In this document: piece by piece, positions 24,648-50,069 of the stretch | Layout of the letters: the number at the start of each line of letters is the position of its first letter | How positions within the stretch are numbered: position 1 is the first letter of the stretch | Source: Escherichia coli | GTDB lineage: Bacteria > Pseudomonadota > Gammaproteobacteria > Enterobacterales > Enterobacteriaceae | Strand: one strand, 5' to 3' | NCBI RefSeq assembly: GCF_011045215.1 | Contig: NZ_CP049201.1 | DNA length: 64,000 bases | Translations under genes and position numbers: made by a program | The notes under the pieces: generated by a model | The model's database searches: none | Told to the model about the DNA's origin: nothing | The model's input: the letters and a program-made list of their open reading frames with translations, nothing else

Positions 24648-24681
24648 AGTCCGTAATCTCGAAAGAGGTTACGGACTTTTT
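24648..24681 (+). terminator. Rho-independent terminator of clpA
   Basis: Hairpin agtccgtaa / ttacggact followed by TTTTT. Confidence 0.75.
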
Positions 24682-33575: not shown

Positions 33576-33669
33576 ATTATGGGGGCTTATGTCCGAACTA
33601 TCGTAAGTTATCGCGTGGATTTGCCTTCACACGAATTTCAGTCGTGGTGCCGCCGGGAGACAGGTACAA

Positions 33670-34033: not shown

Positions 34034-34147
34034 TGTACAATATGCCGATATCGAACTGATACTTAATTAAAATATCTAGAGTGTGATATATCTCTGAGAA
34101 CTATCAATACGAATATTAAAAATACTTCCAGAATAACAGCAATACGG

Positions 34148-34651: not shown

Positions 34652-34941
34652 CCTATTGTAACTATAAGGTGATTTATTATGTATATAGAATCTTACCAGA
34701 AAAAATACTTTTCCTTGTGATTTGGTACTGAGTTAACATTTAGTACAGTATTAGGGCCTTCATTGTCAGGCCCTGCTTTGCAATTTTTCAAAGCTCCAGG
34801 TAAGCTTTTTTCCGATAAACATGCTGATATCAAACACCGCTTCTTTACCAGCACTATCAAAAATAATTCTGATATTTGGTTTTTATCTCCTTGTCTATAG
34901 ATTCGTCACCAATACTGTAGCTTGTATCATTACTTCCTCAA

Positions 34942-35715
34942 TTAAGTGGTTAAAGCTCTAATGCTAAAAGAATGCAATATTGGTAGAGAGTTTTTTGAGC
35001 ACCATGACAGATTTTCTTTACTCAGTATTTCATCAATAACAGACTTAGCAAATGGAATGGTGAGCAAGAATGAAGCTTTTTTATCTTTATTTGGAACTAT
35101 GCGGTTACCACCATTTACCCAATGTGCTTCAAGTCTGACATTTAGATCTTGCCATTTTACACCTTTTCGAACACGTTCTTTTTTTAATGAATAGAAAAAA
35201 GTTGATTTACCATTTGGTGTCGGGTGGTTATCCATTAACATTAGCATAAGAGGGATTCCCCAGTCAGGCATATAGCTATAATGCCAGATCCCAAAACTAT
35301 CCGCGATCCTGACCATCCGAATGAATGATTTTTGATCAAGCTTCCCTTCACCTCCCCTTAATGCTCTACAAACAACCCAGGCCCGATAGAGGTTATCAAA
35401 TTGCATGAATTGATTTCGGCGAGATACTGCAATTTCTGCTGAAGCAGAGCGTTCATTACCTGAAAAACCAGAAAAACGTTGAGATCTTGCGCTTAGGGGA
35501 CAGAACTCTTTATTTTCTGGTGAAGCGGAATGAGAGAATCTGGGGCTATAATCAGGATTGGGAGTGACTAATCCGCTATCATGGACAGGTTTCTCGCATG
35601 AGATACAACGTAATGGTGGGTAGTCATCTCGTGATATACCCTTAACTTTTTGTGCATATGCATCAATACTGATTTCAATCCAATAACCTTTTTCCAGAAC
35701 TTCAGCTTTATTCAT
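34942..35715 (-). CDS. Hypothetical 257-aa protein
   Basis: Uninterrupted ORF with AT-rich upstream region; no recognised domain. Confidence 0.45.
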   Translation of the reverse strand: MNKAEVLEKGYWIEISIDAYAQKVKGISRDDYPPLRCISCEKPVHDSGLVTPNPDYSPRFSHSASPENKEFCPLSARSQRFSGFSGNERSASAEIAVSRRNQFMQFDNLYRAWVVCRALRGGEGKLDQKSFIRMVRIADSFGIWHYSYMPDWGIPLMLMLMDNHPTPNGKSTFFYSLKKERVRKGVKWQDLNVRLEAHWVNGGNRIVPNKDKKASFLLTIPFAKSVIDEILSKENLSWCSKNSLPILHSFSIRALTT

Positions 35716-36022
35716 AATGTGTTGCCTCTGATATTGTTCATGTGATTATTGATAATAATAGATTACAGATAAAAAAGAAGAAATATGTATTTAAATCTTG
35801 TATTACAATGTATATATACAATTCAATCAAAAATTAGTGTTTTTAATCTCATGGCATAATCAGAAAACAGCAGAACGGGGTATTTGTTTTAATGGCGCCT
35901 CGATAAAAATTGAGATAACAGTTGCAGTTTAAAACACCTCTATTTCGTGGTTCTGAATATAGAGGCTTTACGATTTATTAAAATATTACTAAAATATGTT
36001 CATATTCCGATGCACAGACCTT

Positions 36023-36418
36023 TCACTTCTGCTTTTTCTCATTTTTGTCAGTTGTAGACTCAGTTTTTTTACGTTTTAACTTTAATATCATCTTTCCATT
36101 GCTAAATTCAATTTCTTCGTAATCGCGGAAAACAGTAATAACCAGAGCAATACCAATGGATGCTGCAGCAATAATAACAGCGATATCAAGTCCGGATAAT
36201 GCAGCTAAAGAACTAACAGCTAAAACAGAACCTCCACCAGTGAGTGGAATAGTAGCACAAGTTGCGATCATGGCAGCAATAACAACACCACTTACTTTTG
36301 TTACAGCCTTTGCTTTTTTAATTTTATTTGCTAACTCTCCTTCAATAATTATAATTTCAGCTCTGCTGTTTTGAGCTTTTTCGAGTTCATCCTTCGATCT
36401 TACAGTAAATTCAGCCAT
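36023..36418 (-). CDS. Hypothetical small membrane protein (131 aa)
   Basis: Central long hydrophobic segment with charged N- and Lys-rich C-termini; hairpin cctctat...atagagg downstream. Confidence 0.45.
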   Translation of the reverse strand: MAEFTVRSKDELEKAQNSRAEIIIIEGELANKIKKAKAVTKVSGVVIAAMIATCATIPLTGGGSVLAVSSLAALSGLDIAVIIAAASIGIALVITVFRDYEEIEFSNGKMILKLKRKKTESTTDKNEKKQK

Positions 36419-36677
36419 AATTATCCTGGTCTTGTAACATTTATGCCATCTTAAGTACTTTTATTTAGAGCGTTAACACGCTCCGCAGTCTATTAAACGC
36501 AACCGCAATAAAAATTAATGTATTTTACCAATCGTAGTCAACTAAAAGTTTCTTAATACCCTGAACGCTACATCCCATACTTCTACTACGATTTGAGCAA
36601 CATTTTGGTATTGACACTGCAGTTTTCCCAATGAAATATGGGCTTATTCAGCTTTTATTGTTTCCTGAATCTATATT

Positions 36678-37301
36678 ATGCGTACACGAATTGATTATCT
36701 GGTGAATAAATACTGTTTTACAGAACTGAATGAATCTCCACGTCTTCGTCGGCAGTGGCAGGATGTTCTGGATGAGTGCCGGCAGACAGGGGCCGGGCCA
36801 GAAGAACGGCTGCGTATTGCACTGCTGAATGTGGATTACGTCACCAGTTTTGAGCTGCCTTTTCGCTTGCTGCTTACCCGGACACCACAACTGATTGCCG
36901 CGCTGCGTGAAGAATGGGGCATCAGCCAGAAAAATGTGGTGTTCAACGATAAACGGTTTGGCTGCGTGTACAGCCTGAAGGCCAGCCTTTCGGGTGTGCC
37001 GGATACATTCCGGTATCATCTGTCTCACCGTATTCGTCGCGTGGTTGGGAATGAAAACACATCATTGCCATATCAGCAGGTTGCCCGGGAAGTGAAAGCG
37101 TCCCGTGAACGGCTGAAGTATGCGCTGGAAGCAGGTTTACTGGTGACCGCACTGGACGGGCTGTTCTGGTCTGGCAGTCAGCGTATTGCGGCTGATGTCC
37201 TGAGATTAAGACAGAGCGGAATGCCGGTAGTGACAACGAATGTGGAGGTGCACGATAACCTGACGGGAACAACCCGCAAAGTGCCGGCATACCATCTCTG
37301 A
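36678..37301 (+). CDS. Hypothetical 207-aa protein
   Basis: ORF with balanced composition; no recognised motif. Confidence 0.4.
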   Translation: MRTRIDYLVNKYCFTELNESPRLRRQWQDVLDECRQTGAGPEERLRIALLNVDYVTSFELPFRLLLTRTPQLIAALREEWGISQKNVVFNDKRFGCVYSLKASLSGVPDTFRYHLSHRIRRVVGNENTSLPYQQVAREVKASRERLKYALEAGLLVTALDGLFWSGSQRIAADVLRLRQSGMPVVTTNVEVHDNLTGTTRKVPAYHL

Positions 37302-37387
37302 TACGACCATCAGGGGGGGCTCTGGCAGCAGTATGACATTCTTTATACTTTTACCCGTGCCTGAAAACATGTGCTAAGGAAACGGGA

Positions 37388-37621
37388 ATGGCAAGGTCCG
37401 ATTACGATATTATCAATCTGTCTCTGGAACATGAACTGAATGAGTGGCTGGCAGAGAGAGGTTATGCCGGACTGGCGGATAACCGGAATCGCCTGGCAGA
37501 AGTTGTTACCCGCAGATTGCAGGACAGCTTTTATATAAACGTTTCCTGGGATGCGCTGAACACGGCATACAGTGAACACCCGGAGTGGTTTTCTGGGCTT
37601 GTCTTCGGGGATGAGAATTAA
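37388..37621 (+). CDS. Hypothetical 77-aa protein
   Basis: Short ORF directly downstream of the 207-aa gene; weak support. Confidence 0.3.
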   Translation: MARSDYDIINLSLEHELNEWLAERGYAGLADNRNRLAEVVTRRLQDSFYINVSWDALNTAYSEHPEWFSGLVFGDEN

Positions 37622-37673
37622 AAAGTGGATTATGCTGCCATCAGGCAGTGTGATTGCCGGCAGGAATTTCGTT

Positions 37674-37865
37674 TTATTCTGTTTCTTCCCGGGGTTCGGG
37701 TTTGAATTTTCCTGGAAAGTTGTACATTGGCCGCATACAGGGATGTGGATAGCCGTCCCGCATAAATACCACCCGGGTTTCCTCAACACTGGTTACGGTG
37801 ACAAGCGCACCATGATCGTCTCTGTATCGCTGACCGACTTTGGGTAACGGGATATCTTCAGACAT
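37674..37865 (-). CDS. Small DUF4222-like protein (63 aa)
   Basis: Short ORF; family assignment by recalled similarity only. Confidence 0.3.
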   Translation of the reverse strand: MSEDIPLPKVGQRYRDDHGALVTVTSVEETRVVFMRDGYPHPCMRPMYNFPGKFKPEPREETE

Positions 37866-38231
37866 AACTTCCGGAACAATGTTGTTTTACACGATATTGT
37901 TGTTATTACCCGGTACGTTGCGGATGCTTTTTCGGGGTATGTTAATTTATTGTTTTGTTGATTTTTTTTTGCTTTTTGTGCATTCCTGTCACTCTGATTT
38001 CTGCCTTTTACCTCACCTCCCTTTCTTCTGACTTTCGCTGAGAACCGCTCAGATTCTGTACTGCATAAACTTCAATGATTTTAATCAAAAATCACTTTTT
38101 TCAGTGTTGACTGGCTGTATTTGAAGCATCTTACGGAATAATTTTCTGTCGTTTTTTGTTCTCCGTGGTTATAAGTTTTGCAATATGCTGCTTTTGCGAT
38201 ATTAGTTGGAATAAATAACTACGTGATAACT

Positions 38232-38291
38232 ACATATCGATCGATATGTCTGCAATATTGAGAATTTTCAGATCTTCATTCTATAATGATC
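38232..38291. promoter_or_regulatory. GATC-containing palindrome and candidate promoter upstream of cdiB
   Basis: Perfect 18-bp palindrome ACATATCGATCGATATGT (38232-38249); GATC at 38239, 38271, 38288; TATAAT at 38283-38288 with TTGAGA 19 bp upstream. Confidence 0.35.
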
Positions 38292-38456
38292 AAAATTAAA
38301 CCAATTCAGAGTTGACAAATTTATTACTCAACATTCTGGTACCGGTTGATGCGGGTAAATACCGGAAGGGCGGTAGCGTACCATCGCAAAACATGGTGGG
38401 AGGTATCGTCAGGAGGCTGGTGATTGTTGGTATGACATGAATAAAAGGTTTTTCGT

Positions 38457-40196
38457 TTGACTGGAAAATTATGTTGCAGGAACGAGAGGGCTGAGGAACA
38501 AAGCGTATTCCGGCGCTGTCCGTCCTTGCTGTCACTGACACTGATGTCTGTTTTATTATCGCCTTTATCTCTTCAGGCCGCGGATGTCCGGCGTAGCGGA
38601 GATAATGCATTTATCATTCAGCAGCAGCGTCAGGAAGCCCTTGAGCAACAACTGACGCCTTCAGCCCCTGATGTTCGCCTTTCTGCACCTGGCTCTTTTG
38701 CCCGTAAGATTAATTTTCCTGTTGAAACGCCCTGTTTTCAGATTAAACAGACGGAACTGGAGGGGGCTGATGCGTTACCACACTGGCTGCCTTTACAAAA
38801 AATCGCCAACGGGGCGGTCGGGCATTGCCTGGGGGCGAAAGGAATTAATCTGCTGATGAGTACATTGCAGAACCGTCTGGTCGATCATGGTTATGTCACC
38901 ACCCGTGTTCTGGCACCTTCGCAGGATTTAAAAAGCGGTATCCTCCGGCTGGTTGTTATTCCCGGTGTTGTGCGACATGTGCGTCTGACACCGGACAGTG
39001 ATGACTATATTCAGTTGTATTCCTCATTCCCGGCACACGAAGGTTCTCTGCTGGATTTACGGGACATTGAGCAGGGGCTGGAGAATATGCAACGACTGCC
39101 GGGTGTGCAGGCTGATATGGAAATTGTACCCGGTGAGCAGCCAGGGGAAAGTGACATTCTTATTACCCGCAAACAGGACAAATACTGGCGACTGGGGTTT
39201 TCGCTTGATGATTCAGGTACCCGCAGCACAGGGCGTTATCTCGGTGGTATAACATTTTCTCTGGATAATCCTTTTTCCCTGAGTGACCTGCTGTATGTTT
39301 CTGCCACCCGTAATTTTCCACATTACGGGGGTAAGGGCAGTAAAAACTACACGGCCCATTACTCTGTGCCTTTCGGCTACTGGCAGTTTTCCGTCACCGC
39401 CAGTGATTACGATTACCATCAGACGGTAGCTGGTGCGGTTGAGGATTACCAGTACAGTGGCGAGAGTCAGAATCTGGGTATGCAGCTGAGCCGGGTACTG
39501 CACCGTAACGGGACGCAGAAAACGGTGCTGACCTACGATGTTCAGGCCCGCAGGTCGCGTAACTACATTAATGATACGGAAATCCAGGTGCAGCGCCGGC
39601 AGACAGCGGCCTGGCGACTTGGGCTGCAGCACCGTCATTATATTTCTCAGGCCACACTGGATGCTGGTGTCAGCTGGCAACGGGGAACCCGCTGGTTTGG
39701 TGCACAGCCGGCGCCGGAAGAAACGTTCGGTGAGGCAACGGCGCTCAGTAAGATCCTGCAGTTGAATGCATCCTTTAATCTGCCCTTTACCCTTGCAGGG
39801 CAGCCCTTCAGTTATTCCTTCCGGTATCAGCGCCAGCTGAGCAATACCCCGCTGACCCCACAGGAACAGTTTGCCATCGGTAACCGCTGGACGGTTCGTG
39901 GTTTTGACGGGGAGCGAACGCTGAATGCCAGTAACGGCTGGTATATCCGCAACGACCTGGCCTGGCGTACGCCACTGCCGGAGCAGGAGTTATATCTGGG
40001 AATGGATTACGGCGAGGTGGGGGGAGCCGGCAGTGAATACCTGGTGGGACGTCATCTGGCTGGTGGTGTTGTGGGGCTGAGGGGGCAACTGTTCAGTACG
40101 GATTATGACGTTTTCATCGGTCGTCCGTTTTCAAAGCCGGCGGGTTTTATGACGAGTGATGTGACAGCCGGTTTTAATCTGTTCCGGGATTTCTGA
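38457..40196 (+). CDS. cdiB: Two-partner secretion outer-membrane transporter CdiB (TpsB family); start uncertain (TTG at 38457)
   Basis: Signal peptide ending [13 protein letters not shown]-like N-region, C-terminal beta-barrel ending in aromatic residue; directly upstream of cdiC-cdiA. Confidence 0.85.
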
Positions 40197-40205: not shown

Positions 40206-40733
40206 ATGCGTAACGGGAAATATGACGTTCTGAGTCCCCTGTATTCCGGTGAGCCGGTCAATGAGGCGGAAGTCCTGGGGGCGGCCGTCTGGTTGTGGAT
40301 GCACTCCCCCCTGCATCGTGATGCGCCACTGCATACCCTGCCGGACCTGCTGCTGCCGGTGATTAAGCACCGACAGTATGTGGTGGCAACAGAGCAGGGG
40401 CGACCGGTTTTCTTCATGAGCCAGGCCTGGCTCAGCCCGGAGGCAGAGGCGCGTTATCTTACGCAGCCGGCAATTCTCATGCCTCAGTCGGACTGGAACA
40501 GCGGCGACCGGATGTGGGTCTGTGACTGGATTGCCCCTTTTGGACATACCCCGGATATGAGTCGTCTTGTCCGGCAGGATATTTTTCCCCGTCTGTGCTG
40601 GCGTTCGCTGTACCACCGTGGGCAGCAGACCGGGTTGCGGGTGATGAATTTCCGGGGTGCACAGGTCAGTCGTGAAGAGGCGCGCCAGTGGCGTGTGCAG
40701 CACCCGCTTGCTGTGGATGTGCCGGAGAGATAA
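40206..40733 (+). CDS. cdiC: HlyC/RTX-family toxin-activating lysine acyltransferase (CdiC-like)
   Basis: Motifs WLWMHSPLHRD and GDRMWVCDWIAPFG closely parallel HlyC (WLWASSPLHRN, GDRKWFIDWIAPFG); 175 aa. Confidence 0.8.
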   Translation: MRNGKYDVLSPLYSGEPVNEAEVLGAAVWLWMHSPLHRDAPLHTLPDLLLPVIKHRQYVVATEQGRPVFFMSQAWLSPEAEARYLTQPAILMPQSDWNSGDRMWVCDWIAPFGHTPDMSRLVRQDIFPRLCWRSLYHRGQQTGLRVMNFRGAQVSREEARQWRVQHPLAVDVPER

Positions 40734-40748: not shown

Positions 40749-43700
40749 ATGAACAAAAATTGTTACCGCATTATTTTTAACAAAGCCCGGGGAATGCTGA
40801 TGGTGGTGGCAGATATTGCCCGTTCCGGTCGCGCCGGTGCATCACCCTCCTCCCGTACAGGATATCCACGCAGGCAACGTATCTGCCGTGTCACATCGCT
40901 TGCATTCTCCCTGTGGCTGGCCTCGGGGATGGTGCATTCTGTCAGTGCTGCAGGCATTGTCGCAGACCATGGCGCACCGGGGCATCAGCAGCCCACGATT
41001 ACGCAGACAGCCAGCGGCATTCCTCAGGTCAATATCCAGACACCTTCTGCAGGTGGGGTATCGCACAATACTTACAGTCAGTTTGATGTCAGTCATCAGG
41101 GTGTCATTCTGAATAACTCGCATAAAAATGTGCAGACCCAACTGGGCGGCATGGTTGCCGGTAACCCGTGGCTGGCGAAGGGAGAGGCCCGAATCATTCT
41201 TAATGAAGTGAACAGTCGCAATCCCAGCCAGTTGAACGGTTTTGTTGAGGTTGCCGGGAAAAAGGCGCAGGTGGTGATTGCGAACCCGGCCGGCATCAGT
41301 TGCGACGGGTGCGGTTTTATTAATGCGAACCGGGCCACGCTGACCACGGGGCAGCCTCAGATGAAAAACGGCAGTCTGACCGGATTCAGTGTTGAACGTG
41401 GTGAGATTCAGATTACGGGCAAAGGGATGGATGCCTCGCGCACGGATTATACCGATATCATTGCCCGGTCTGTGAAGATTAATGCGGGTATCTGGGCGCA
41501 GGACCTGAAAGTGACCACCGGACGTAACAATGTGGATATTGCACACGGGCAGACTGAGAAAAAAGCCGCTGATGCCTCTTCGCAGCCACAGGTGGCGCTG
41601 GATGTGTCCAGCCTTGGTGGAATGTATGCCGGAAAAATTCGCCTTGTCGGTACGGAAACGGGGGTGGGTGTTCGTAACGCCGGTCATATTGGTGCGCAGG
41701 CAGGGGCGGTTACCCTGACGGCTGACGGACGAATTGAAAACAGTGGCAGTATCAGTGCGAAAACGGATGTGCATCTGGTGACAACCCGGGAGCTGCATAA
41801 CAGTGGTTCTGTTTATGCGGGGCAGGATACGCAGATACAGAGTGATGGTGTATTCACCCATACAGGCTCTGTGGCATCACGTCGCAACACCCGGATTCAG
41901 ACAGCGCGTCTGACCGGCGGTGAGCGGAGTCTGCTGGCCGCCGGGGTGAAAGATGACGGACGTCTGGCGGCAGCGGGCAACCTGACTGTCAGTACCACCG
42001 GCGAACTGGCGGCACACGGACAGGTTCTGTCCGGTGGGGACATGCAACTGAAGGGGCAGGGGCTGGATTTAAGCAACAGCCGGATACAGGGACAACATAC
42101 TGAGCTGGATGCAGGCAGCGGAAATCTGTTCACGCAAAATGCGCAACTGAGTGCCGGTACGCTTTCCGCCCGGACTGCCGGGCAGTTCAGCAATAATGAC
42201 GGCACGATAAATGCCGACACACTGCAGATATCAGCACAGAGCCTGTCAAACCACAGGGGTAAACTGATTCAGACGGGAACAGGGGATTTTTCACTGAACC
42301 TGCCGGGAGGTGTGGATAACCGGGAAGGGCTGCTTGCGGCAAATGGCGCGGTGCGCCTGGATGCACTGAGCCTTGATAATCGCAGGGGGAAAGTGCAGGC
42401 GGCGCAGTCAGGTAGTCTGCAGGTGAGGACAACCGGCGCCGTGGATAACCAGCAGGGAAGTCTGATTGCCAGCCGTGACATCCTGATTAATACACAGGCA
42501 CTGAATAACGACAACGGACTGATTTCAGCTGCTGCCGGAACGGGCAGGATAAAAACACAGCAGGCTGTCAGCAATACTGAGGGACGAATGGAGTCCGCCG
42601 GCAGGCTGGATATTTCGGCAGGGAGTCTGAATAACCACCAGGGTACGGTGGTGTCTGACGGGCTGTCCGTGACGCTGGATGGTGCGCTGGATAATACGTC
42701 CGGCAGACTGCTTTCACAGAAAACGCTGTCTGTGTCAGGCAGCGAACTGGTCTCTGATGATGGTCTGATTCAGTCCGGCAGTGACATGACGCTGGATGTA
42801 CAGGACGGGGTTCTCAGTAACCGGAACACGAAAACACGGGGTGGTATCAGCAGCGCCGGTACCCTGACAGTACGGGCCGGTATGCTGAATAACCAGCAGG
42901 GATTTATGGCGGGTCAGAAGGATATGACCCTGAACGCCGGAACGCTCGATAACCGTCAGGGCGTGCTGGGGAGTCAGGCGTCATTACAGATATCGTCAGG
43001 TACGCTGATGAACCAGAAAGGCGCACTGAAGGCCGGGACGGATATGTTGCTGAGTGGTGGCGATGTCAGTAATCAGGAAGGGACGCTTGCCGCCGGCGGG
43101 GACCTGAATGCGCACCTGAATGTGCTGGAAAATCAGCAGGGGACGGTGGTCAGCAACGGTAACAGCAGGCTGGATGTCACCCGCTCTGATAATCAGGGCG
43201 GCAGACTGGTGGCACAGCAGTCACTGACCCTTTCCTCGACGGATATCAGCAATGATGCAGGTGGTCTGATACAGAGCGGTGCCACACTGAATCTCCGTGC
43301 TGACACACTGAGCAACCGTAACAGTGGTGACCGGGGCGGGGTTATCAGTCAGGGCCCGATGACGCTGAATGCCGGCACACTGGACAGCACTGCCGGTGTG
43401 CTTTTGTCGGGAGATGCGCTGTCCCTGACTGCAGGCGTGGTTAACAATACATCCGGTCAGGTGGTGGCGAATGGTCAGATTGTGGCGACCGGTCTGCCCG
43501 GCCGGAACAGTCTGGCGCTGAACAATCAGTCCGGTCTTATTCAGGGGAAAGGCATCAGCATTAATAGCGCAGGCCGGACGCTGGATAACAGAGGGGGTAC
43601 GCTGAACAGCCTGCAGGAACTGACTGTCAGTACCGGAGCAATGGATAACCGGGGCGGGACCGTGGGGGCGAAAACGACAGCTGACCTGAGCACCACCTCG

Positions 43701-46700
43701 CTGGATAACCGTGAGGGTGGCCGGCTGGTCAGTGAAGGTGAACTCCGTCTGCATACGGGAGGCCTGCAGAACAGCCACGGACAGATACAGTCTGTGGGCG
43801 ACATTCTGTTCGACAGTGTACGGGGCGTTGTGGACAACGTCTCTGGTCTGATTCGCAGTGGTTCTGCCATTACGCTGAACGCCCTGCAGTTTATCAATCG
43901 CCACACGCAGAATACCGGCCAGGGGCTGGAAGCGCAGACAATACACATCACGACGCAGGACCTTGATAACCAGGAGGGCAGTATTCTGGCAGACAGGGCG
44001 CTTACGGTTATGGCAGACAGGACGCTCAGTAATAATGATGGCGTGCTCTCTTCCGGCGCGACATTGTCTGTCAGTGGCCGTCAGCTGGCGTTTTCGAACC
44101 GTGACGGCGTGGTTAAGGCCGGGCAGTCAGTCTCTGTGGATGTCGGTCAGCTTGGTGGTGACGGGAAACTGCTTTCGCCGGGCGATATAACGCTGAAAAG
44201 TAACACAGCGTTCAGTAACAGTGGTCAGACCATTGCAAACGGAAACCTTACGCTTTCCGTTAATGGCGATGTCTCTAATACCGGCAGCCTGCTGGCAGGC
44301 AGCCGGCTTGACCTGAACAGCATCCGCCTTGAAAACACAGAGAAAGGTGAAATCAGTGCCGGGCAGACCTGGCTTAACGTGACGGACACACTGCTGAACC
44401 GTGGGCTGATTGACGGGAAATATACGCATCTTCAGGCGAACACCCTGACGAATTCCGGTACCGGGCGAATCTACGGCGATGCTGTTGGTGTCAGCGCTGC
44501 CACATTTAATAATCTGGATGAAAATGGCGTGGCGGCGACGCTGGCCGGACGTGAGCGTGTGGACCTGGGGGTACAGACCCTGAATAACCGGACGCACAGC
44601 CTGATTTACAGTGCAGGTGATATGCATATCGGTGGCATGCTGGATGCGAATGGCGCCGCCACGGGGAAAGCCGGTGTACTGAATAATCACAGTGCCACGA
44701 TTGAAGCCGCCGGTTCCCTGACACTGAGTGCCGGGCAAATCAATAACGTCAATGACCATTTCACCACGGAGCGCGTGGTGGTCTCCACGGAAAAGGTGAC
44801 TGAGTATCAGCATCGCGGGTCAGATGTCCGCTGGAATGCAAAAGATGAGGGGGTGTTCATTGATAACAACTCCTCTGATGGACTGCTGAACCTGAACACG
44901 CCGGATGATACCGGACATAACAACGACCGGTTCACAAAATATGAATACACCCGTACCGTGGAGGAAACCCGGGTAAAAGACTCCGACCCGGGGAAAATAC
45001 TGTCCGGTGCCGGCATGACGGTTGTGGCAGACAAACTGCTTAATGACAAGAGCCAGGTGGTTGCAGGTGGTCTGCTGGATATGCAGGCCGGTGATGTGGA
45101 AAACGTCAGTGTCAGCGGAGAGCGCCATGTTACTGATAAAGGGACATCCACATATTATTACCGGATAAAAAGAAAAAATAAAAATGACAGGCAGGGGGAA
45201 AGAATTTCCCCTTACGAGCCGCCCCCCGTCATTCAGACCATCACGCTGAAGCCGGGAGAGCTCACCAGCCACGGACAGGTTCAGGGCAGCCAGGTCACGC
45301 TTTCTCCCCTGAAGCCACAGGGAACGGATGTACAGACAGGACTGACCGGAAATGTGGATGCGACAGTAGCCGTTACTGACCGGATACCGCTTCGCCCGGT
45401 GGTGTCAGCCGGTGAACCGGTCATTCTGTTGCCGGGGCAGCAGTTTGAAGTCAGCGCACCTCAGGGCAGTATCCATGTTGCCGGGCCGGATACCCGTCTG
45501 CCGGACAGCAGCCTGTTTAAAACAAATCCGGCAGTGAATGTGCCATATCTGGTTGAAACGGACCCGCGTTTTACGAACCAGAAGACGTGGCTGGGCAGTG
45601 ATTACATGCAGAAGGCGTTTTCTCAGAACGGGGATAACATGCTCAAACGCCTGGGGGATGGTTTTTACGAACAGCGTCTGATTCGTGAGCAGGTTGTCGC
45701 TCTGACCGGGCAACGGTACCTGGACGGATACAGTAATGATGAAGAGCAGTTTAAGGCGTTAATGGATGCGGGTATTGCATTTGGTAAGCAATACAACCTG
45801 ACACCAGGTGTGGCGCTGACTGCTGAGCAGATGGCGTTACTGACCGGTGATATTGTCTGGCTGGTTAACACCACGGTGACACTGCCGGACGGCAGCACGC
45901 AGACGGTTCAGGTACCTCAGGTGTATGCCCGTGTAAAACCCGGTGATGTGAACAGTGCCGGTGCGCTGATTGCCGGCAGGGACATGGTGATGAAGCTGGA
46001 TGGTGACCTGTTTAACAGCGGTAAACTGGCCGGGAAGCAGGCCGTGCAGCTCAGTGCAGAAAACATTCACAACCAGGCCGGCACCATTCAGGGAGCAAAT
46101 GTCAGCCTGACGGCCCGGACGGATATTAACAGTACCGGCGGGCTGCTGCAGGCCACGGACAGCCTGCTGGCGATGGCCGGACGGGATATCAGTCTGACCA
46201 CCACCACCCGTACGGCACAGCGCGACGCCGGGCAGAACCATTTTGAACGTACCAGTATCGACAGTGTGGCCGGCGTGTATGTGCAGAACGACCAGGGAAG
46301 ACTGGTGCTGCAGGCCGGACGGGATATGAATCTGACGGCGGCAACGGTGGTGAATCAGGGTAAGGACAGCCTGACACAACTCAGTGCCGGCAGGGATATG
46401 ACGCTTTCCACGGTGACCACATCCGCGCAGGACAATATTACCTGGGATAAAAATAATCGTCTGTCGCAGGGCGTCACACAGAATACGGGCAGCACACTTG
46501 CCGGTAACGGTGATGTCACGCTGACCGCCGGACGGGATATGACGTCACAGGCGGCATCGCTGTCAGCTCAGAAAGGCCTGGCCCTGATGGCGGGTCATGA
46601 CGTGACGCTGACCGGTGCACAGAATACCCGCTCGCTGGATGAATACCATAAAGTGACCGGCAACAGCGGGATGTTATCGAAAACCACCACTACCACGCAT

Positions 46701-49700
46701 GATGTCACTGACCGCCGGACCATGACGGGCAGTGAACTGAACGGGGATACGGTCAGTATCGGTGCCGGACATAATCTGAACGTCACGGGCAGCAGTGTGG
46801 CCGGGGATAACCGTGTCTCCCTGGCTGCCGGAAATAACCTGAGTATCGGAACGCTGACAGAAAGCAACCGTGAAACACACCTGAAACAGGAGAAAAAATC
46901 CGGACTGATGAGCTCCGGAGGTGTGGGATTCAGCGTGGGCAGCCAGAGTCTGAAGGTCACGGACACCGCAACAGACACCACGCAGAAAGGCAGCACGGTG
47001 GGGAGTGTTCACGGTGATGTTTCCCTTCAGGCAGGTAACCGGTTGACCGTCAACGGCTCTGACCTGATTGCCGGCAGGGACATGGCACTCAGTGGTAAGG
47101 AGGTCAGCATTACCGCCGCCACTGACCGGCATGTGCAGACACATACGGTGGAGCAGAAAACCTCCGGTCTGACGCTTGCCCTGTCCGGCACAGCGGGCAG
47201 CGCCCTGAACACGACGGTGGAGACCGTACAGGCGGCGAAATCTGCCGGAAACAGCCGGCTTGAAGCCCTGCAGGGGGTGAAGGCCGCGCTCTCGGGGGCT
47301 CAGGCCGTGCAGGCCGGACGACTGGCAGAAGCACAGGGCAACCAGAAAGAGAATAACAATACCGTGGGTATCAGCCTCTCTTACGGCAGCCAGTCTTCGA
47401 AATCAGAACAGCAGTCAGAGCAGACGGTGGCGAAGGGCAGTACACTGACCGCAGGTAATAACCTCAGTATTCAGGCCACCGGCTCCGGCGTGAAGGGCGT
47501 GGATGGTGACCTGACGATACAGGGCGGTCAGATAAAGGCCGGGAACAACGTTCTGCTGCAGGCAAACCGTGACGTGAATCTGGTATCAGCAGAAAACACG
47601 TCAAAGCTGGAAGGAAAGAACACATCCAGTGGTGGCAGCGTGGGTGTCGGTATCGGTGTGGGGCCCGGAGGGCCTGGTTTCAGTCTGTCAGCCAGCGCAA
47701 ACCAGGGTAAGGGCAGTGAAAAAGGCAACGGTACCACCCATACAGAAACCACGGTGGATGCGGGAAACCGGCTGACCATTATCAGCGGGCGGGACACCAC
47801 GCTTACCGGCGCGCAGGCTGGCGGTGAAACGGTGAAAGTGGATGCCGGTCGTCATCTGACACTGACCAGTGAGCAGGACAGTGACCGTTATGACAGTAAG
47901 CAGCAGAATGCCAGCGCCGGAGGCAGCTTCACTTTCGGGTCCATGAGCGGTTCGGCGAGTGTGAACCTCAGCCGGGATAAAATGCACAGTAACTACGACA
48001 GTGTACAGGAGCAGACGGGGATTTTTGCCGGCAGGGGCGGGTTTGATGTCACCACCGGACAGCATACGCAACTGAACGGTGCGGTGATTGCGTCCACGGC
48101 AACGGCAGATAAAAACAGGCTGGATACCGGCACACTGGGCTTCAGTGACACTGAAAACCGGGCTGACTTTAAAACGGAACATCAGAGTGCAGGGCTCAGT
48201 ACCGGTGGCAGTGTTGCCGGAAATTTCCTGGGGAACATGGCAAACAATCTGCTGGTCGGTGCAAATCATGAAGGCCATGCGGACAGTACCACGCAGTCGG
48301 CTGTGTCTGCCGGGAATATCACTATCCGGGATACACAGAGCCAGAAACAGGATGTGGCAGACCTGAACCGTGACGTTGCGCATGCAAACCAGACGCTGTC
48401 CCCCATCTTTGACAGGGAAAAAGAGCAGCAGCGGTTGCAGCAGGCGCAACTCATTGGTGAGATTGGTAACCAGGTGGCAGATATTGCCAGAACGGAAGGA
48501 CAGATAGCCGGTGAGAAAGCGAAGCGGGACCCGGCAGCACTGAATCAGGCCCGCGCAGAGCTTGAGGCAGCAGGAAAACCGTACACGGAACAGGATGTGG
48601 CACAGCGGGCCTACAATAACGGTATGGCAGCCTCCGGTTTTGGAACGGGAGGCAAATACCAGCAGGCGATACAGGCCGCAACGGCAGCGGTACAGGGACT
48701 GGCCGGCGGTAATCTGAGTGCAGCCCTGGCAGGTGGTGCAGCGCCGTATATTGCTGAAATTATCAAACAGACCACCCCGGACGGTGCGGGGCGTGTGGCA
48801 GCTCATGCAGTAGTGAATGCCGCCCTGTCTCTGGCACAGGGTAAGAATGCCCTTGCCGGTGCTGCAGGTGCAGCCACCGGCGAGGTGGTGGGAATGATAG
48901 CCACACAGATATACGATAAATCGGTGAGTGAACTGAGTGAGACAGAGAAACAGACGGTCTCCACGCTGGCAACGGTTGCTGCCGGCCTGGCCGGTGGTCT
49001 GGTGGGAGACTCGGGGGCTTCAGCGGTAGCCGGCGCACAGTCAGGTAAGACGACTGTTGAGAATAATTATCTTAGCGTGTCTGAAAAGACAGAGCTTGAG
49101 ATAGCAAAACAGAAGCTTAAAAACAGTAAAGATCCGGCAGAGCGTGAAAAGGCACAGCAGAAATATGATGCATTGCTTGAAAAAGATATCAGCAGTGATA
49201 AGGCAGTAATCGCTGCGTGCAGTAACGGACAGGCAGCCAGCGCAGCTTGTGCCGGTGAAAGACTGAAGGTTATTGCAGCTAAAGGAGGTTATGAAACCGG
49301 ACACTACAATAACCAAGTCAGCGATATGTATCCGGATGCTTACGGGCAGATAGTAAACCTGCTGAATATCACCAGTGTTGATGCACAAAATCAACAACAG
49401 GTGAAGGATGCGATGGTGAACTATGCCATGGTGCAGTTTGGGGTCGATAGGGCGACGGCACAGGCATACGTTGAAACTTATGATGGAATGAAAGTTGTAG
49501 CTGCTTCGATGGCACCAGTAATAGGTGCTGCGGCGGCCAGTAAGATAGAAGTTCTGGCTGGTAAACAACGCTTGTCTAATAGTTTCGAGGTTAGCTCACT
49601 TCCAGATGCAAATGGGAAAAATCACATCACGGCTGTAAAAGGTGATGCTAAAATACCTGTCGATAAGATTGAACTATATATGCGTGGTAAAGCTTCTGGT

Positions 49701-50069
49701 GACCTTGATTCTTTGCAAGCAGAATATAATTCTTTAAAAGATGCAAGGATTAGCAGCCAAAAAGAATTTGCAAAAGATCCAAACAATGCTAAAAGGATGG
49801 AAGTATTAGAAAAACAAATCCATAATATTGAGCGTTCTCAAGATATGGCTCGTGTATTAGAACAAGCAGGTATAGTGAATACTGCCAGTAATAACAGCAT
49901 GATAATGGATAAGTTATTGGACTCAGCTCAGGGGGCTACGTCTGCAAATAGAAAAACATCTGTTGTTGTATCAGGGCCTAACGGTAACGTAAGGATTTAT
50001 GCTACATGGACAATATTACCTGATGGCACGAAAAGACTTTCAACTGTTAATACGGGGACATTCAAATGA
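40749..50069 (+). CDS. cdiA: Contact-dependent inhibition exoprotein CdiA (3106 aa) with VENN-delimited C-terminal toxin
   Basis: Extended signal peptide MNKNCYRIIFNKARGMLMVVADIA, TPS domain (ANPAGISCDGCGF), long FHA-type repeat tracts, VENN at 49056-49067, AT-rich C-terminal 333 aa. Confidence 0.9.
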   Translation: MNKNCYRIIFNKARGMLMVVADIARSGRAGASPSSRTGYPRRQRICRVTSLAFSLWLASGMVHSVSAAGIVADHGAPGHQQPTITQTASGIPQVNIQTPSAGGVSHNTYSQFDVSHQGVILNNSHKNVQTQLGGMVAGNPWLAKGEARIILNEVNSRNPSQLNGFVEVAGKKAQVVIANPAGISCDGCGFINANRATLTTGQPQMKNGSLTGFSVERGEIQITGKGMDASRTDYTDIIARSVKINAGIWAQDLKVTTGRNNVDIAHGQTEKKAADASSQPQVALDVSSLGGMYAGKIRLVGTETGVGVRNAGHIGAQAGAVTLTADGRIENSGSISAKTDVHLVTTRELHNSGSVYAGQDTQIQSDGVFTHTGSVASRRNTRIQTARLTGGERSLLAAGVKDDGRLAAAGNLTVSTTGELAAHGQVLSGGDMQLKGQGLDLSNSRIQGQHTELDAGSGNLFTQNAQLSAGTLSARTAGQFSNNDGTINADTLQISAQSLSNHRGKLIQTGTGDFSLNLPGGVDNREGLLAANGAVRLDALSLDNRRGKVQAAQSGSLQVRTTGAVDNQQGSLIASRDILINTQALNNDNGLISAAAGTGRIKTQQAVSNTEGRMESAGRLDISAGSLNNHQGTVVSDGLSVTLDGALDNTSGRLLSQKTLSVSGSELVSDDGLIQSGSDMTLDVQDGVLSNRNTKTRGGISSAGTLTVRAGMLNNQQGFMAGQKDMTLNAGTLDNRQGVLGSQASLQISSGTLMNQKGALKAGTDMLLSGGDVSNQEGTLAAGGDLNAHLNVLENQQGTVVSNGNSRLDVTRSDNQGGRLVAQQSLTLSSTDISNDAGGLIQSGATLNLRADTLSNRNSGDRGGVISQGPMTLNAGTLDSTAGVLLSGDALSLTAGVVNNTSGQVVANGQIVATGLPGRNSLALNNQSGLIQGKGISINSAGRTLDNRGGTLNSLQELTVSTGAMDNRGGTVGAKTTADLSTTSLDNREGGRLVSEGELRLHTGGLQNSHGQIQSVGDILFDSVRGVVDNVSGLIRSGSAITLNALQFINRHTQNTGQGLEAQTIHITTQDLDNQEGSILADRALTVMADRTLSNNDGVLSSGATLSVSGRQLAFSNRDGVVKAGQSVSVDVGQLGGDGKLLSPGDITLKSNTAFSNSGQTIANGNLTLSVNGDVSNTGSLLAGSRLDLNSIRLENTEKGEISAGQTWLNVTDTLLNRGLIDGKYTHLQANTLTNSGTGRIYGDAVGVSAATFNNLDENGVAATLAGRERVDLGVQTLNNRTHSLIYSAGDMHIGGMLDANGAATGKAGVLNNHSATIEAAGSLTLSAGQINNVNDHFTTERVVVSTEKVTEYQHRGSDVRWNAKDEGVFIDNNSSDGLLNLNTPDDTGHNNDRFTKYEYTRTVEETRVKDSDPGKILSGAGMTVVADKLLNDKSQVVAGGLLDMQAGDVENVSVSGERHVTDKGTSTYYYRIKRKNKNDRQGERISPYEPPPVIQTITLKPGELTSHGQVQGSQVTLSPLKPQGTDVQTGLTGNVDATVAVTDRIPLRPVVSAGEPVILLPGQQFEVSAPQGSIHVAGPDTRLPDSSLFKTNPAVNVPYLVETDPRFTNQKTWLGSDYMQKAFSQNGDNMLKRLGDGFYEQRLIREQVVALTGQRYLDGYSNDEEQFKALMDAGIAFGKQYNLTPGVALTAEQMALLTGDIVWLVNTTVTLPDGSTQTVQVPQVYARVKPGDVNSAGALIAGRDMVMKLDGDLFNSGKLAGKQAVQLSAENIHNQAGTIQGANVSLTARTDINSTGGLLQATDSLLAMAGRDISLTTTTRTAQRDAGQNHFERTSIDSVAGVYVQNDQGRLVLQAGRDMNLTAATVVNQGKDSLTQLSAGRDMTLSTVTTSAQDNITWDKNNRLSQGVTQNTGSTLAGNGDVTLTAGRDMTSQAASLSAQKGLALMAGHDVTLTGAQNTRSLDEYHKVTGNSGMLSKTTTTTHDVTDRRTMTGSELNGDTVSIGAGHNLNVTGSSVAGDNRVSLAAGNNLSIGTLTESNRETHLKQEKKSGLMSSGGVGFSVGSQSLKVTDTATDTTQKGSTVGSVHGDVSLQAGNRLTVNGSDLIAGRDMALSGKEVSITAATDRHVQTHTVEQKTSGLTLALSGTAGSALNTTVETVQAAKSAGNSRLEALQGVKAALSGAQAVQAGRLAEAQGNQKENNNTVGISLSYGSQSSKSEQQSEQTVAKGSTLTAGNNLSIQATGSGVKGVDGDLTIQGGQIKAGNNVLLQANRDVNLVSAENTSKLEGKNTSSGGSVGVGIGVGPGGPGFSLSASANQGKGSEKGNGTTHTETTVDAGNRLTIISGRDTTLTGAQAGGETVKVDAGRHLTLTSEQDSDRYDSKQQNASAGGSFTFGSMSGSASVNLSRDKMHSNYDSVQEQTGIFAGRGGFDVTTGQHTQLNGAVIASTATADKNRLDTGTLGFSDTENRADFKTEHQSAGLSTGGSVAGNFLGNMANNLLVGANHEGHADSTTQSAVSAGNITIRDTQSQKQDVADLNRDVAHANQTLSPIFDREKEQQRLQQAQLIGEIGNQVADIARTEGQIAGEKAKRDPAALNQARAELEAAGKPYTEQDVAQRAYNNGMAASGFGTGGKYQQAIQAATAAVQGLAGGNLSAALAGGAAPYIAEIIKQTTPDGAGRVAAHAVVNAALSLAQGKNALAGAAGAATGEVVGMIATQIYDKSVSELSETEKQTVSTLATVAAGLAGGLVGDSGASAVAGAQSGKTTVENNYLSVSEKTELEIAKQKLKNSKDPAEREKAQQKYDALLEKDISSDKAVIAACSNGQAASAACAGERLKVIAAKGGYETGHYNNQVSDMYPDAYGQIVNLLNITSVDAQNQQQVKDAMVNYAMVQFGVDRATAQAYVETYDGMKVVAASMAPVIGAAAASKIEVLAGKQRLSNSFEVSSLPDANGKNHITAVKGDAKIPVDKIELYMRGKASGDLDSLQAEYNSLKDARISSQKEFAKDPNNAKRMEVLEKQIHNIERSQDMARVLEQAGIVNTASNNSMIMDKLLDSAQGATSANRKTSVVVSGPNGNVRIYATWTILPDGTKRLSTVNTGTFK

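What the first reader, a model, noticed from the sequence alone, without database searches (positions are those of the whole stretch)
38232..38291. GATC-centred palindrome and GATC cluster in the cdiB upstream region
A perfect 18-bp palindrome ACATATCGATCGATATGT with GATC at its centre is followed within 50 bp by two more GATC sites, one overlapping a TATAAT hexamer. Closely spaced Dam sites in promoters underlie methylation-dependent phase variation in other E. coli surface-structure operons (pap, agn43). This is a hypothesis, not an identified switch.
Basis: inference. Interest (0 to 1): 0.55.

Follow-up and report, generated by a model that had tools for sequence, protein, structure and literature searches.

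The report
Fur/Dam switch promoter driving cdiBCAI
The three GATC sites upstream of this contact-dependent-inhibition toxin operon belong to a copy of a known promoter of an E. coli type VI secretion cluster, which is switched ON or OFF in individual cells by the iron regulator Fur and by DNA methylation, so this toxin system is probably iron-controlled and expressed in only part of the population.

Summary
There is a perfect 18-bp palindrome at 38232-38249 with a central GATC, and two more GATCs at 38271 and 38288. The third GATC abuts the TATAAT hexamer rather than overlapping it. The cluster is not an unidentified switch. It is a copy of Psci1, the promoter of the enteroaggregative E. coli (EAEC) sci1 type VI secretion cluster, which has been shown experimentally to be a Fur/Dam epigenetic ON/OFF switch.

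- **Match to Psci1:** GATC spacing is identical (32 and 17 bp), the -35/-10 elements match, and the Fur box over the -10 is identical at 19 of 19 positions.
- **Context:** the same three upstream genes are present. Homology ends about 10 nt past the predicted transcription start.
- **What follows:** an hly-like leader with an RfaH ops element, then cdiB-cdiC-cdiA (class IV CDI).
- **Conservation:** each GATC is kept in 47 of 48 sequence variants of the module. The 18-bp symmetry is unique to this window; only ATCGATCGAT is conserved.
- **Weak point:** the upstream Fur box (F2) has diverged here.

The Dam-switch idea is supported by homology, but the partner is Fur, not Lrp or OxyR. I found no report of this promoter on a cdi operon. 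Function at this locus is inferred, not tested.

The parts
36678..37301 (+). ECs1377-family gene (207 aa). First of three genes found upstream of the promoter module in both the cdiB-linked and the tssB-linked copies.
   Evidence: ORF. NCBIfam NF052300, E=6e-95. Only a weak C-terminal wHTH hit in Pfam. Syntenic in L037, L038, L043, L044 and E. coli 042. 94% nucleotide identity to the L043 copy.
37674..37865 (-). DUF4222 gene, divergent from the promoter. It contains the distal GATC of the published Psci1 fragment at 37814-37817.
   Evidence: Published primers Prom sci1-5 and Promsci1-pT7-5 (PMC3145626, Table S1) match window 37806-37830 and 37795-37817 exactly. Annotated as DUF4222 in homologs.
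38166..38202 (+). Conserved upstream block TGGTTATAAGTTTTGCAATATGCTGCTTTTGCGATAT, about -130 to -90 from the predicted start. Function unknown.
   Evidence: Nearly invariant in the cdiB-linked and tssB-linked copies; the hlyC-linked copy is more diverged (A3; conservation line).
38218..38236 (+). Position equivalent to the distal Fur box F2 of Psci1. It has diverged in this window.
   Evidence: ACTACGTGATAACTACATA matches EAEC F2 (CCTGATTATTTGCATTATA) at 8 of 19 positions and the Fur consensus at 6-7 of 19 (alignment A4).
38232..38249 (.). 18-bp perfect palindrome. Its central GATC (38239-38242) corresponds to GATC-III/G3 of Psci1.
   Evidence: Aligns with G3 of E. coli 042. PvuI (CGATCG) and BspDI (ATCGAT) sites are present, as in Fig S1 of PMC3145626. 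GATC kept in 47/48 variants; full palindrome in 1/48.
38258..38263 (+). -35 hexamer TTGAGA
   Evidence: Identical to E. coli 042 Psci1. The common cdiB-linked variant has TTGCTG.
38271..38274 (.). GATC-II/G2, in the promoter spacer, 32 bp after G3.
   Evidence: BglII (AGATCT) and Hpy188I (TCAGA) sites as in PMC3145626 Fig S1. Kept in 47/48 variants.
38282..38287 (+). -10 hexamer TATAAT
   Evidence: TATAAT is present in all 48 unique variants listed.
38282..38300 (+). Proximal Fur box (fur1/F1), TATAATGATCAAAATTAAA. It overlaps the -10 and contains G1.
   Evidence: 19/19 identical to the box tested by FURTA and EMSA in EAEC (oligo in Table S1). Matches the Fur consensus at 13/19.
38288..38291 (.). 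GATC-I/G1, 17 bp after G2. In EAEC this site is protected from Dam by Fur.
   Evidence: BclI site TGATCA present. Kept in 47/48 variants.
38306..38456 (+). cdiB-specific 5' leader. Homology to Psci1 ends at about 38305. The leader is shared with the hlyC leader of alpha-hemolysin plasmids.
   Evidence: Identity to the tssB-linked copy falls from 88% (38232-38305) to 49% (38306-38380). Alignments A2, A3, A4.
38369..38380 (+). ops-like element GGCGGTAGCGTA, matching the RfaH ops consensus GGCGGTAGCGTG at 11 of 12 positions.
   Evidence: Consensus taken from PMC5995543 and bioRxiv 10.1101/2025.02.08.637259. 42 related E. coli loci carry the perfect 12-mer and 12 carry the ...GTA form.
38457..40196 (+). 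cdiB (TpsB transporter). This is the longest ORF, starting at TTG 38457. The start proposed for the STEC_O31 ortholog corresponds to TTG 38526.
   Evidence: 97-98% amino-acid identity to ShlB/FhaC/HecB-annotated genes. Start-codon note in PMC8510554.
40206..40733 (+). cdiC (HlyC-like lysine acyltransferase)
   Evidence: 99% identical to a gene annotated 'toxin-activating lysine-acyltransferase'. About 34% identity to HlyC.
40749..50069 (+). cdiA (3106-aa filamentous effector)
   Evidence: Homologs are annotated as filamentous hemagglutinin or hemagglutinin-repeat protein.

Best explanation
The GATC cluster is the core of a Psci1-type promoter, the Fur/Dam epigenetic switch first described for the EAEC sci1 type VI secretion cluster. 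Here it drives a class IV cdiB-cdiC-cdiA(-cdiI) operon.

**Proposed mechanism**
1. A sigma-70 promoter (TTGAGA-18-TATAAT, 38258-38287) starts transcription near 38292-38296. This is predicted, not mapped.
2. When iron is plentiful, Fe-Fur binds the F1 box (38282-38300). F1 covers the -10 and contains G1 (38288). Bound Fur excludes RNA polymerase and shields G1 from Dam. This was shown in EAEC on the identical 19-bp box and is inferred here.
3. When iron is scarce, Fur leaves and Dam methylates G1. Methylated G1 lowers Fur affinity, so the ON state persists until replication produces hemimethylated DNA. This was shown in EAEC.
4. In EAEC, G3 (the palindrome centre, 38239) and the adjacent F2 box set the ON/OFF ratio. 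A G3 mutant is uniformly OFF; an F2 mutant has more cells ON. In this window G3 is kept but F2 has diverged, so the ratio may be shifted, probably towards ON. This is inference.
5. The transcript then crosses an ops-like element at 38369-38380. This probably recruits RfaH, so that RNA polymerase reads through the roughly 11.6-kb operon. This rests on the motif alone.

The expected result is iron-repressed, cell-to-cell heterogeneous CdiA deployment.
For: **Identification of the reference promoter**
- E. coli 042 positions L113:12299-12893 contain all five published Psci1 oligos exactly.

**Match of the window to that promoter**
- 63 of 74 positions agree from the palindrome to the end of the module. 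40 of 43 agree from the -35 to the end of F1 (A4).
- GATC spacing is 32 and 17 bp in both.
- All five diagnostic restriction sites (PvuI, BspDI, BglII, Hpy188I, BclI) are present.
- The F1 box is identical at 19/19.
- The published 5' primers match the window's DUF4222 gene exactly.
- The same ECs1377 / 77-aa ORF / DUF4222 gene trio lies upstream of tssB in 042 and STEC409.

**Conservation and distribution**
- Each GATC is kept in 47/48 unique variants.
- In the loci found with the anchor pattern, only two downstream architectures occur: tssB, or the ops leader followed by cdiB.

**Experimental basis for the mechanism**
- Fur binding, protection of G1 from Dam, and the effect of methylation on Fur binding: PMC3145626.
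- Control of heterogeneity by F2 and G3: PMC13262931.
- The orthologous class IV locus of STEC_O31 needs its native predicted promoter region for activity: PMC8510554.
Against: - No experiment exists for this promoter in a cdi context.
- The F2-equivalent here matches EAEC F2 at only 8/19 and the Fur consensus at 6-7/19. F2 is the element that matters most for heterogeneity in EAEC.
- A 13/19 Fur-consensus match is not rare by chance. There are 38 such sites in the window, and 23% of shuffles of the intergenic region have at least one. The Fur claim therefore rests wholly on identity to the tested box.
- GATC conservation is partly shared ancestry. Truncated cdiB remnants with no functional operon also keep all three sites. 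The variants fall into only about 3-4 deep lineages.
- The hlyC-linked copy has lost G1 and G3, and one tssB-linked copy has lost G1.
- The -10 and -35 elements are 'putative' even in the EAEC paper, and no transcription start is mapped.
- The ops element has A instead of G at position 12, which belongs to the TG pause dinucleotide.
Confidence: 0.7

Rival explanations
1. This is a plain Fur-repressed, iron-responsive promoter with no heritable Dam-dependent switching at this locus. The GATCs persist because they lie inside the Fur box, the spacer and the upstream sequence inherited from Psci1. Loss of the F2 box has removed the bistable behaviour.
For: F2 has diverged, and in EAEC F2 and G3 are the elements that control heterogeneity. 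Non-functional cdiB remnants keep the GATCs too, so their conservation need not reflect selection for methylation.
Against: G1 lies inside the identical F1 box, where antagonism between Fur and Dam was shown directly. In EAEC the G1 mutant also has an altered ON/OFF ratio. All three GATCs survive 12-24% divergence of the core between lineages.
Confidence: 0.17
2. The palindrome is the operator of a different, dimeric DNA-binding protein whose binding is sensitive to methylation of the central GATC. One candidate is the co-inherited ECs1377-family protein, which has a weak wHTH signal. In this lineage that protein would have replaced Fur-F2 as the partner of G3.
For: The window has lost F2 and gained perfect 18-bp symmetry. 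The ECs1377, 77-aa and DUF4222 genes travel with the module in every context examined. A faint C-terminal wHTH hit was found.
Against: The extended symmetry is unique to this window (1/48) and is one substitution away from RM11911. Only ATCGATCGAT is conserved, and even its left arm varies (TTGATCGAT variants keep the GATC). The wHTH hit is not significant (E=0.34). No experiment links these genes to the promoter.
Confidence: 0.08
3. This is a Pap-like (Lrp/PapI) or agn43-like (OxyR) Dam phase-variation switch, as in the first reader's analogy.
For: There are three closely spaced GATCs in a promoter of a surface-protein operon.
Against: No OxyR tetrad motif within 3 mismatches anywhere in the window. 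GATC spacing is 32 and 17 bp, not the roughly 102 bp of pap (known from the literature, not checked here). No papI/papB-like genes were seen next to the promoter. The homologous promoter is controlled by Fur.
Confidence: 0.02
4. The module is a fossil of a T6SS promoter that does not drive cdiB. The operon would be transcribed from elsewhere, for example from a site within the leader near TTGACA 38311, and the GATCs would be irrelevant to CDI.
For: Remnant loci fuse cdiB fragments to T6SS (VasL) fragments, so this region has been rearranged repeatedly. The window has a perfect TTGACA at 38311-38316.
Against: The only sigma-70-like site found between 37800 and 38600 is the Psci1-type one. TTGACA at 38311 has no acceptable -10 at 16-18 bp, and other lineages read TTGGCA there. 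The junction lies about 10 nt after the predicted start in all cdiB-linked copies, and the same junction precedes hlyC. The STEC_O31 locus depends on its native upstream region.
Confidence: 0.03

Closest known systems
Psci1, promoter of the EAEC sci1 (T6SS-1) gene cluster: Fur/Dam epigenetic switch (Brunet et al. 2011, PMC3145626; Taillefer et al. 2026, PMC13262931)
   Same: The DNA is homologous: 63/74 identity over the core and 40/43 from the -35 to the end of F1. The F1 Fur box is identical, the -35 and -10 are the same, and there are three GATCs with the same 32/17 spacing and the same restriction sites. The distal GATC lies in the same DUF4222 gene, and the same three upstream genes are present.
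   Different: The operon driven is cdiBCAI, not tssB and the rest of the T6SS cluster. The shared sequence stops about 10 nt after the predicted start and is followed by an ops-containing leader. The F2 box has diverged (8/19). The GATC-III flanks form a perfect 18-bp palindrome only here. The upstream intergenic part is 62% identical to the tssB-linked copy L043 (STEC409), and the distance from the distal GATC to G3 is 4 bp shorter than in E. coli 042 (425 vs 429 bp).
[quoted passage not shown] 2020, cited in PMC13262931 and PMC11963381)
   Same: The same logic applies: a GATC inside a Fur box that overlaps the -10.
   Different: I did not compare the sequences. It is an internal promoter of the T6SS cluster, not an operon-proximal cassette.
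hlyCABD upstream region of E. coli alpha-hemolysin plasmids (e.g. pBCE049-1, L041)
   Same: It shares the promoter module from upstream of the palindrome position, the same module-leader junction, and the JUMPStart/ops-type leader (76% identity over window 38240-38377).
   Different: G3 and G1 are lost (CAATAGAT and TAATGTTC) and only G2 remains. The leader is about 630 bp longer. The operon is a type I secreted toxin.
pap (Lrp/PapI) and agn43 (OxyR) Dam phase-variation switches
   Same: Competition between Dam and a DNA-binding protein at promoter GATCs gives heritable ON/OFF states.
   Different: The proteins and site architecture differ and there is no sequence similarity. In Psci1 the OFF-to-ON transition is driven mainly by an environmental signal (iron) rather than being purely stochastic (PMC3145626 discussion).

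Membership tests
Psci1-type Fur/Dam switch promoter | Sequence homology to the published 596-bp Psci1 fragment, including flanking gene context | tested here: met
   All five published oligos locate Psci1 in E. coli 042. The window aligns to it (A4) with 63/74 identity in the core. The 5' primers match the window exactly. The same upstream gene trio is present.
Psci1-type Fur/Dam switch promoter | Proximal Fur box (F1) overlapping the -10 and containing GATC-I | tested here: met
   TATAATGATCAAAATTAAA at 38282-38300 is 19/19 identical to the tested EAEC box.
Psci1-type Fur/Dam switch promoter | Three GATCs over 53 nt: one 3' of the -10, and two flanking the -35 (one in the spacer, one upstream) | tested here: met
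   38239, 38271 and 38288, with spacing 32/17 as in Fig S1 and in 042.
Psci1-type Fur/Dam switch promoter | Distal Fur box (F2) immediately upstream of GATC-III | tested here: not met
   The equivalent 19-mer at 38218-38236 matches EAEC F2 at 8/19 and the Fur consensus at 6-7/19. No other site with 12/19 or better lies between 38150 and 38281.
Psci1-type Fur/Dam switch promoter | Fur binds and protects GATC-I from Dam; methylation lowers Fur affinity; expression is iron-repressed and heterogeneous | not testable with these tools
   Needs EMSA or footprinting, methylation-sensitive sequencing and single-cell reporters. Known only for EAEC.
Pap-like Lrp/Dam switch | Two GATCs about 102 bp apart within Lrp sites, with papI/papB-type regulator genes | tested here: not met
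   GATC spacing is 32 and 17 bp. The next GATC upstream is 425 bp away, inside a gene. Neighbouring genes are ECs1377-family, a 77-aa ORF and DUF4222. The Pap features are from established knowledge, not re-checked in a paper here.
agn43-like OxyR/Dam switch | GATCs embedded in an OxyR tetrad site (ATAG-N7-CTAT-N7-ATAG-N7-CTAT) | tested here: not met
   0 matches with up to 3 mismatches in the whole window.
RfaH/ops-dependent long operon | ops 12-mer GGCGGTAGCGTG on the non-template strand in the 5' leader of a long horizontally acquired operon | tested here: inconclusive
   GGCGGTAGCGTA at 38369-38380 matches 11/12. The critical bases G4, G5, A7 and G8 are intact, but G12 of the TG pause dinucleotide is A. 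42 of 54 related loci have the perfect 12-mer. RfaH dependence was not tested.
Class IV CDI locus (cdiBCAI) | Gene order cdiB, HlyC-like cdiC, cdiA | tested here: met
   ORFs at 38457-40196, 40206-40733 and 40749-50069. Homolog annotations. CdiC is about 34% identical to HlyC. Locus type described in PMC8510554. The receptor-binding-domain class of CdiA was not checked.

The most novel reading that the evidence does not exclude
The DUF4222-linked Fur/Dam switch may be a portable regulatory cassette that recombination exchanges, exactly at the transcription start, between contact-dependent weapons (T6SS-1 and class IV CDI) and alpha-hemolysin. One iron-plus-methylation epigenetic programme, together with RfaH, would then set which cells in an E. 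coli population are armed with which weapon. In this window's lineage the Fur F2 partner of G3 has been replaced by sequence that creates a perfect 18-bp GATC-centred palindrome. That could be an operator for a new methylation-sensitive regulator.
Probability: 0.2. Interest if true: 0.72.

Novelty: new member of a known kind. Interest (0 to 1): 0.55.

Why it matters
How chromosomal E. coli CDI systems are regulated is largely unknown. Most work uses the constitutive EC93 locus or artificial promoters.

If this promoter behaves like Psci1, class IV CDI would be iron-repressed and deployed by only a fraction of cells, under the same epigenetic logic as the T6SS. That would give a ready mechanism for heterogeneity and division of labour in contact-dependent antagonism.

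The prevalence makes it relevant. A copy of the cdiB-linked region was found in 1286 of 5426 complete E. coli genomes, although cdiB is often frameshifted or truncated. Only 203 genomes carry the tssB-linked form. The better-studied context is therefore the rarer one.

The finding turns a vague hypothesis into specific tests: point mutants at G1 and G3, and delta-fur, delta-dam and delta-rfaH backgrounds. It also shows that regulatory cassettes can be swapped between weapon systems at nucleotide precision.

Tried and rejected
- **Rfam:** a scan of 37000-39000 at E up to 1 found nothing. There is no known RNA family in the leader.
- **Cross-species comparison:** 33 cdiB loci from other Enterobacterales share no upstream nucleotide similarity with the window and lack ops. 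Deep phylogenetic footprinting was therefore impossible, and the module is E. coli-specific.
- **Fur consensus counting:** 13/19 matches are common by chance, so I did not use this as evidence.
- **OxyR motif:** no match.
- **Upstream proteins:** NCBIfam and Pfam gave only the name 'ECs1377 family' and a non-significant wHTH hit.
- **tRNA scan:** none in the window, so the island's attachment site was not identified.
- **Literature searches:** cdi with Dam, Fur, RfaH or sci1, and unmethylated GATC with hemagglutinin, returned no paper linking them. An avian E. coli methylome paper only cites the sci1 work.
- **stcE plasmid context (L039):** this looked like a fourth linked operon, but its leader and ATGAGC start are of the tssB type. 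It is probably a T6SS remnant.
- **A 4-bp indel in F2:** I considered this to explain 425 vs 429 bp between the distal GATC and G3. The alignment shows no gap there; the difference lies further upstream.
- **Oligo naming:** the oligo names Bfur1 and Bfur2 in Table S1 appear swapped relative to the paper's text. I followed the text, in which fur1 is the 13/19 box that overlaps the -10 and contains GATC-I. My own match counts agree.

Full report
**1. Observation**

Window 38232-38249 reads ACATATCGATCGATATGT. It is a perfect 18-bp palindrome with GATC (38239-38242) at its centre. Two further GATCs lie at 38271-38274 and 38288-38291. TATAAT occupies 38282-38287, so the third GATC abuts the hexamer rather than overlapping it.

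The promoter scan finds one sigma-70-like site between 37800 and 38600: TTGAGA (38258), an 18-bp spacer, then TATAAT (38287), matching 11 of 12 positions. The GATCs therefore lie upstream of the -35, in the spacer, and directly after the -10.

By itself the cluster is not statistically remarkable. The window has 176 GATCs and 5 triplets within 60 bp, against about 1.9 expected from random placement. An 18-bp perfect palindrome is expected about 0.24 times in 64 kb (my estimate).

**2. Context**

Downstream lie cdiB (38457-40196), an HlyC-like acyltransferase gene cdiC (40206-40733) and cdiA (40749-50069). This is the class IV cdiBCAI arrangement described for E. coli STEC_O31 (PMC8510554).

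Upstream lie three genes: an ECs1377-family gene (36678-37301), a 77-aa ORF (37388-37621) and a divergently oriented DUF4222 gene (37674-37865).

The flanks are 96-98% identical to E. coli chromosomes. They carry an integrase and many IS elements, so this is a genomic island.

**3. What the region is**

A search of plasmids showed that the stretch 38071-38303 also occurs upstream of tssB of a type VI secretion cluster. The stretch 38240-38377 occurs upstream of hlyC. That pointed to the sci1 T6SS promoter of enteroaggregative E. coli (EAEC).

Brunet et al. 2011 (PMC3145626) describe this promoter as follows:
- GATC-I lies 3' of the -10, inside Fur box fur1, which matches the Fur consensus at 13/19.
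- A second Fur box, fur2 (11/19), lies upstream of the -35.

Their Fig S1 gives cut positions 451, 483 and 500, a spacing of 32 and 17 bp. It also names the enzymes PvuI/BspDI, BglII/Hpy188I and BclI. The window has exactly this spacing and all five recognition sites.

Their primers and box oligos (Table S1) all occur exactly in E. coli 042 at L113:12299-12893. That stretch is therefore the published fragment.

The window compares with it as follows:
- The 5' primers match window 37795-37830 exactly.
- The -10-overlapping Fur box is identical at 19/19.
- The stretch from the -35 to the end of F1 is identical at 40/43.
- The stretch from the palindrome to the end of the shared module is identical at 63/74 (alignment A4).
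- The same three upstream genes precede tssB in 042, STEC409 and O6:H16.

Compared with a tssB-linked copy, identity falls from 88% (38232-38305) to 49% (38306-38380). The shared cassette therefore ends about 10 nt after the predicted transcription start. This window holds a Psci1 promoter cassette joined to a different leader and operon.

**4. Conservation**

I scanned metagenome contigs with an anchor pattern from a conserved upstream block that contains no GATC. Together with the genome loci, this gave 76 in-register copies and 48 unique 150-nt variants.
- Each of G3, G2 and G1 is present at the same offset in 47 of 48 variants. Mean 4-mer conservation across the region is 0.74.
- Only two downstream architectures occur in these loci: the tssB leader (21 loci) or the ops-containing leader followed by cdiB, with or without cdiC (55 loci).
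- In complete E. coli genomes the cdiB-linked region is found in 1286 of 5426. cdiB is often frameshifted or truncated in these. The tssB-linked form is found in 203.

Two cautions apply. The variants fall into only a few deep lineages, and dead remnants also keep the GATCs, so conservation is partly shared ancestry. In addition, the hlyC-linked copy has lost G3 and G1, and one Citrobacter tssB copy has lost G1.

The perfect 18-bp symmetry is unique to this window (1/48). The nearest relative, RM11911, differs by one base in the left arm. Only ATCGATCGAT is conserved, and variants that change its left arm still keep the GATC. What has been preserved is the GATC, not the palindrome.

**5. Mechanism**

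In EAEC:
- Fur binds F1 and F2, competes with RNA polymerase and keeps GATC-I unmethylated in vivo.
- GATC-I becomes methylated in a fur mutant or with dipyridyl, and methylation lowers Fur affinity for F1 (PMC3145626).
- Under iron limitation the population settles at about 60% ON and 40% OFF. This state is reversible and heritable.
- F2 mutants are more ON, even in iron-rich medium. G3 and triple-GATC mutants are uniformly OFF (PMC13262931).

By homology I infer the same for this cdi promoter: Fur repression at the identical F1/G1, Dam-dependent memory of the ON state, and heterogeneous CdiA expression.

The main uncertainty is F2. The equivalent 19-mer (38218-38236) matches EAEC F2 at 8/19 and the Fur consensus at 6-7/19. 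The F2/G3 part of the circuit may therefore be weakened, which would predict a higher ON fraction or leakier expression. Alternatively another protein may use the site.

The Fur assignment rests on identity to a tested site, not on consensus matching. 13/19 matches are frequent by chance.

**6. Leader**

The leader carries GGCGGTAGCGTA at 38369-38380. This matches the RfaH ops consensus GGCGGTAGCGTG at 11 of 12 positions.
- 42 related E. coli cdiB-linked loci carry the perfect 12-mer, and 12 carry the ...GTA form.
- The surrounding roughly 60 nt are homologous to the hlyC leader of alpha-hemolysin plasmids.
- ops is absent upstream of 33 cdiB relatives in other genera.
- RfaH/ops control was recently shown within the sci1 cluster itself (bioRxiv 10.1101/2025.02.08.637259).
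- No open-access paper in the library mentions RfaH together with cdiA.

RfaH-dependent antitermination of this roughly 11.6-kb operon is a reasonable inference, but it is untested.

**7. Rivals**

- A pap- or agn43-type switch is excluded by sequence (spacing).
- Chance is excluded by homology.
- A plain Fur-repressed promoter without switching remains possible. So does a new regulator acting on the window-specific palindrome.
- A fossil promoter that does not drive cdiB is unlikely. No other sigma-70-like site was found, the junction is constant across copies, and the STEC_O31 locus depends on its native upstream region.

**8. Novelty**

The switch itself is known. I found no report of it in front of a CDI operon, nor of the mosaic of Psci1 cassette, hly-type ops leader and cdiBCAI. 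I rate this as a new member of a known kind. Interest is moderate: it makes CDI regulation and heterogeneity directly testable, and it shows promoter-cassette exchange between two contact-dependent weapon systems.

Noticed in passing
window 38369-38380 (leader 38306-38456): An ops-like element, GGCGGTAGCGTA, sits in the cdiB 5' leader, inside a JUMPStart-like stretch homologous to the hlyC leader. 42 related E. coli loci have the perfect RfaH ops 12-mer and 12 have the GTA form. It is absent upstream of 33 cdiB relatives in other genera. No paper in the library links RfaH and cdiA.
   Followed up: partly
L041 (pBCE049-1) 2411-2640 versus window 38240-38377: Alpha-hemolysin plasmids carry the same promoter module and the same module-leader junction about 630-730 bp upstream of hlyC. 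GATC-III and GATC-I are mutated there (CAATAGAT, TAATGTTC), so hly appears to have the cassette without most of the Dam sites.
   Followed up: partly
window ~38305/38306; L002 and L042 (23AR0303, APEC O1); L113 44740-45438 (E. coli 042): The Psci1 cassette and the operon-specific leaders join about 10 nt after the predicted transcription start. Many E. coli keep only the first 45-145 codons of cdiB after the promoter. In 23AR0303, APEC O1 and 042 itself, annotated POTRA (cdiB-like) and VasL (T6SS) gene fragments lie side by side, which indicates repeated rearrangement between the cdi and T6SS loci.
   Followed up: partly
window 38166-38202 and 38073-38097: Two upstream blocks (TGGTTATAAGTTTTGCAATATGCTGCTTTTGCGATAT and TTCAATGATTTTAATCAAAAAT) are more conserved than the F2 region in the cdiB-linked and tssB-linked copies; the hlyC-linked copy is more diverged. 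I know of no assigned function for them.
   Followed up: no
window 38311-38439 and 38457/38526: A 42-codon ORF in the leader (TTG 38311 to TGA 38439) is annotated in RefSeq homologs as a hypothetical protein (WP_001364398.1). It is probably spurious. The cdiB start is ambiguous: the longest ORF starts at TTG 38457, while Halvorsen et al. propose the UUG that corresponds to 38526.
   Followed up: no
L001, L036, L037, L038 versus window 38457-40196: In RM11911, O157:H7 NE1169-1, Z1323 and S19-651, RefSeq annotates cdiB as two pieces: a POTRA pseudogene plus a ShlB/FhaC/HecB CDS. In this window it is one intact 579-codon ORF. tblastn gives an unbroken alignment (97-98% amino-acid identity): full length (579 aa) in L001 and running to the end of the fetched sequence (521 aa) in the other three, so the split may be an annotation artefact.
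   Followed up: partly
window 37962-37970: A run of nine T's (GATTTTTTTTTGC) lies in the intergenic region upstream of the promoter module. It was not examined for length variation.
   Followed up: no
window 54333-54358 and 40417-40434: Two other long perfect palindromes are present: a 26-bp one, CAAGCGGTACATATATGTACCGCTTG, and an 18-bp one, TGAGCCAGGCCTGGCTCA, inside cdiC.
   Followed up: no
window 3644-3675, 19984-20039, 35287-35337, 59700-59749: Four other clusters of three GATCs within 60 bp. The window total of 5 compares with about 1.9 expected.
   Followed up: no
window 24000-38000 and 50000-64000: The cdi locus lies on an island with a tyrosine integrase, a YfjI-family gene and many IS elements (IS1, IS21, IS66, IS4, IS110). 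The clpA-side sequence is only about 96% identical to most E. coli genomes, and no tRNA gene was found in the window.
   Followed up: no
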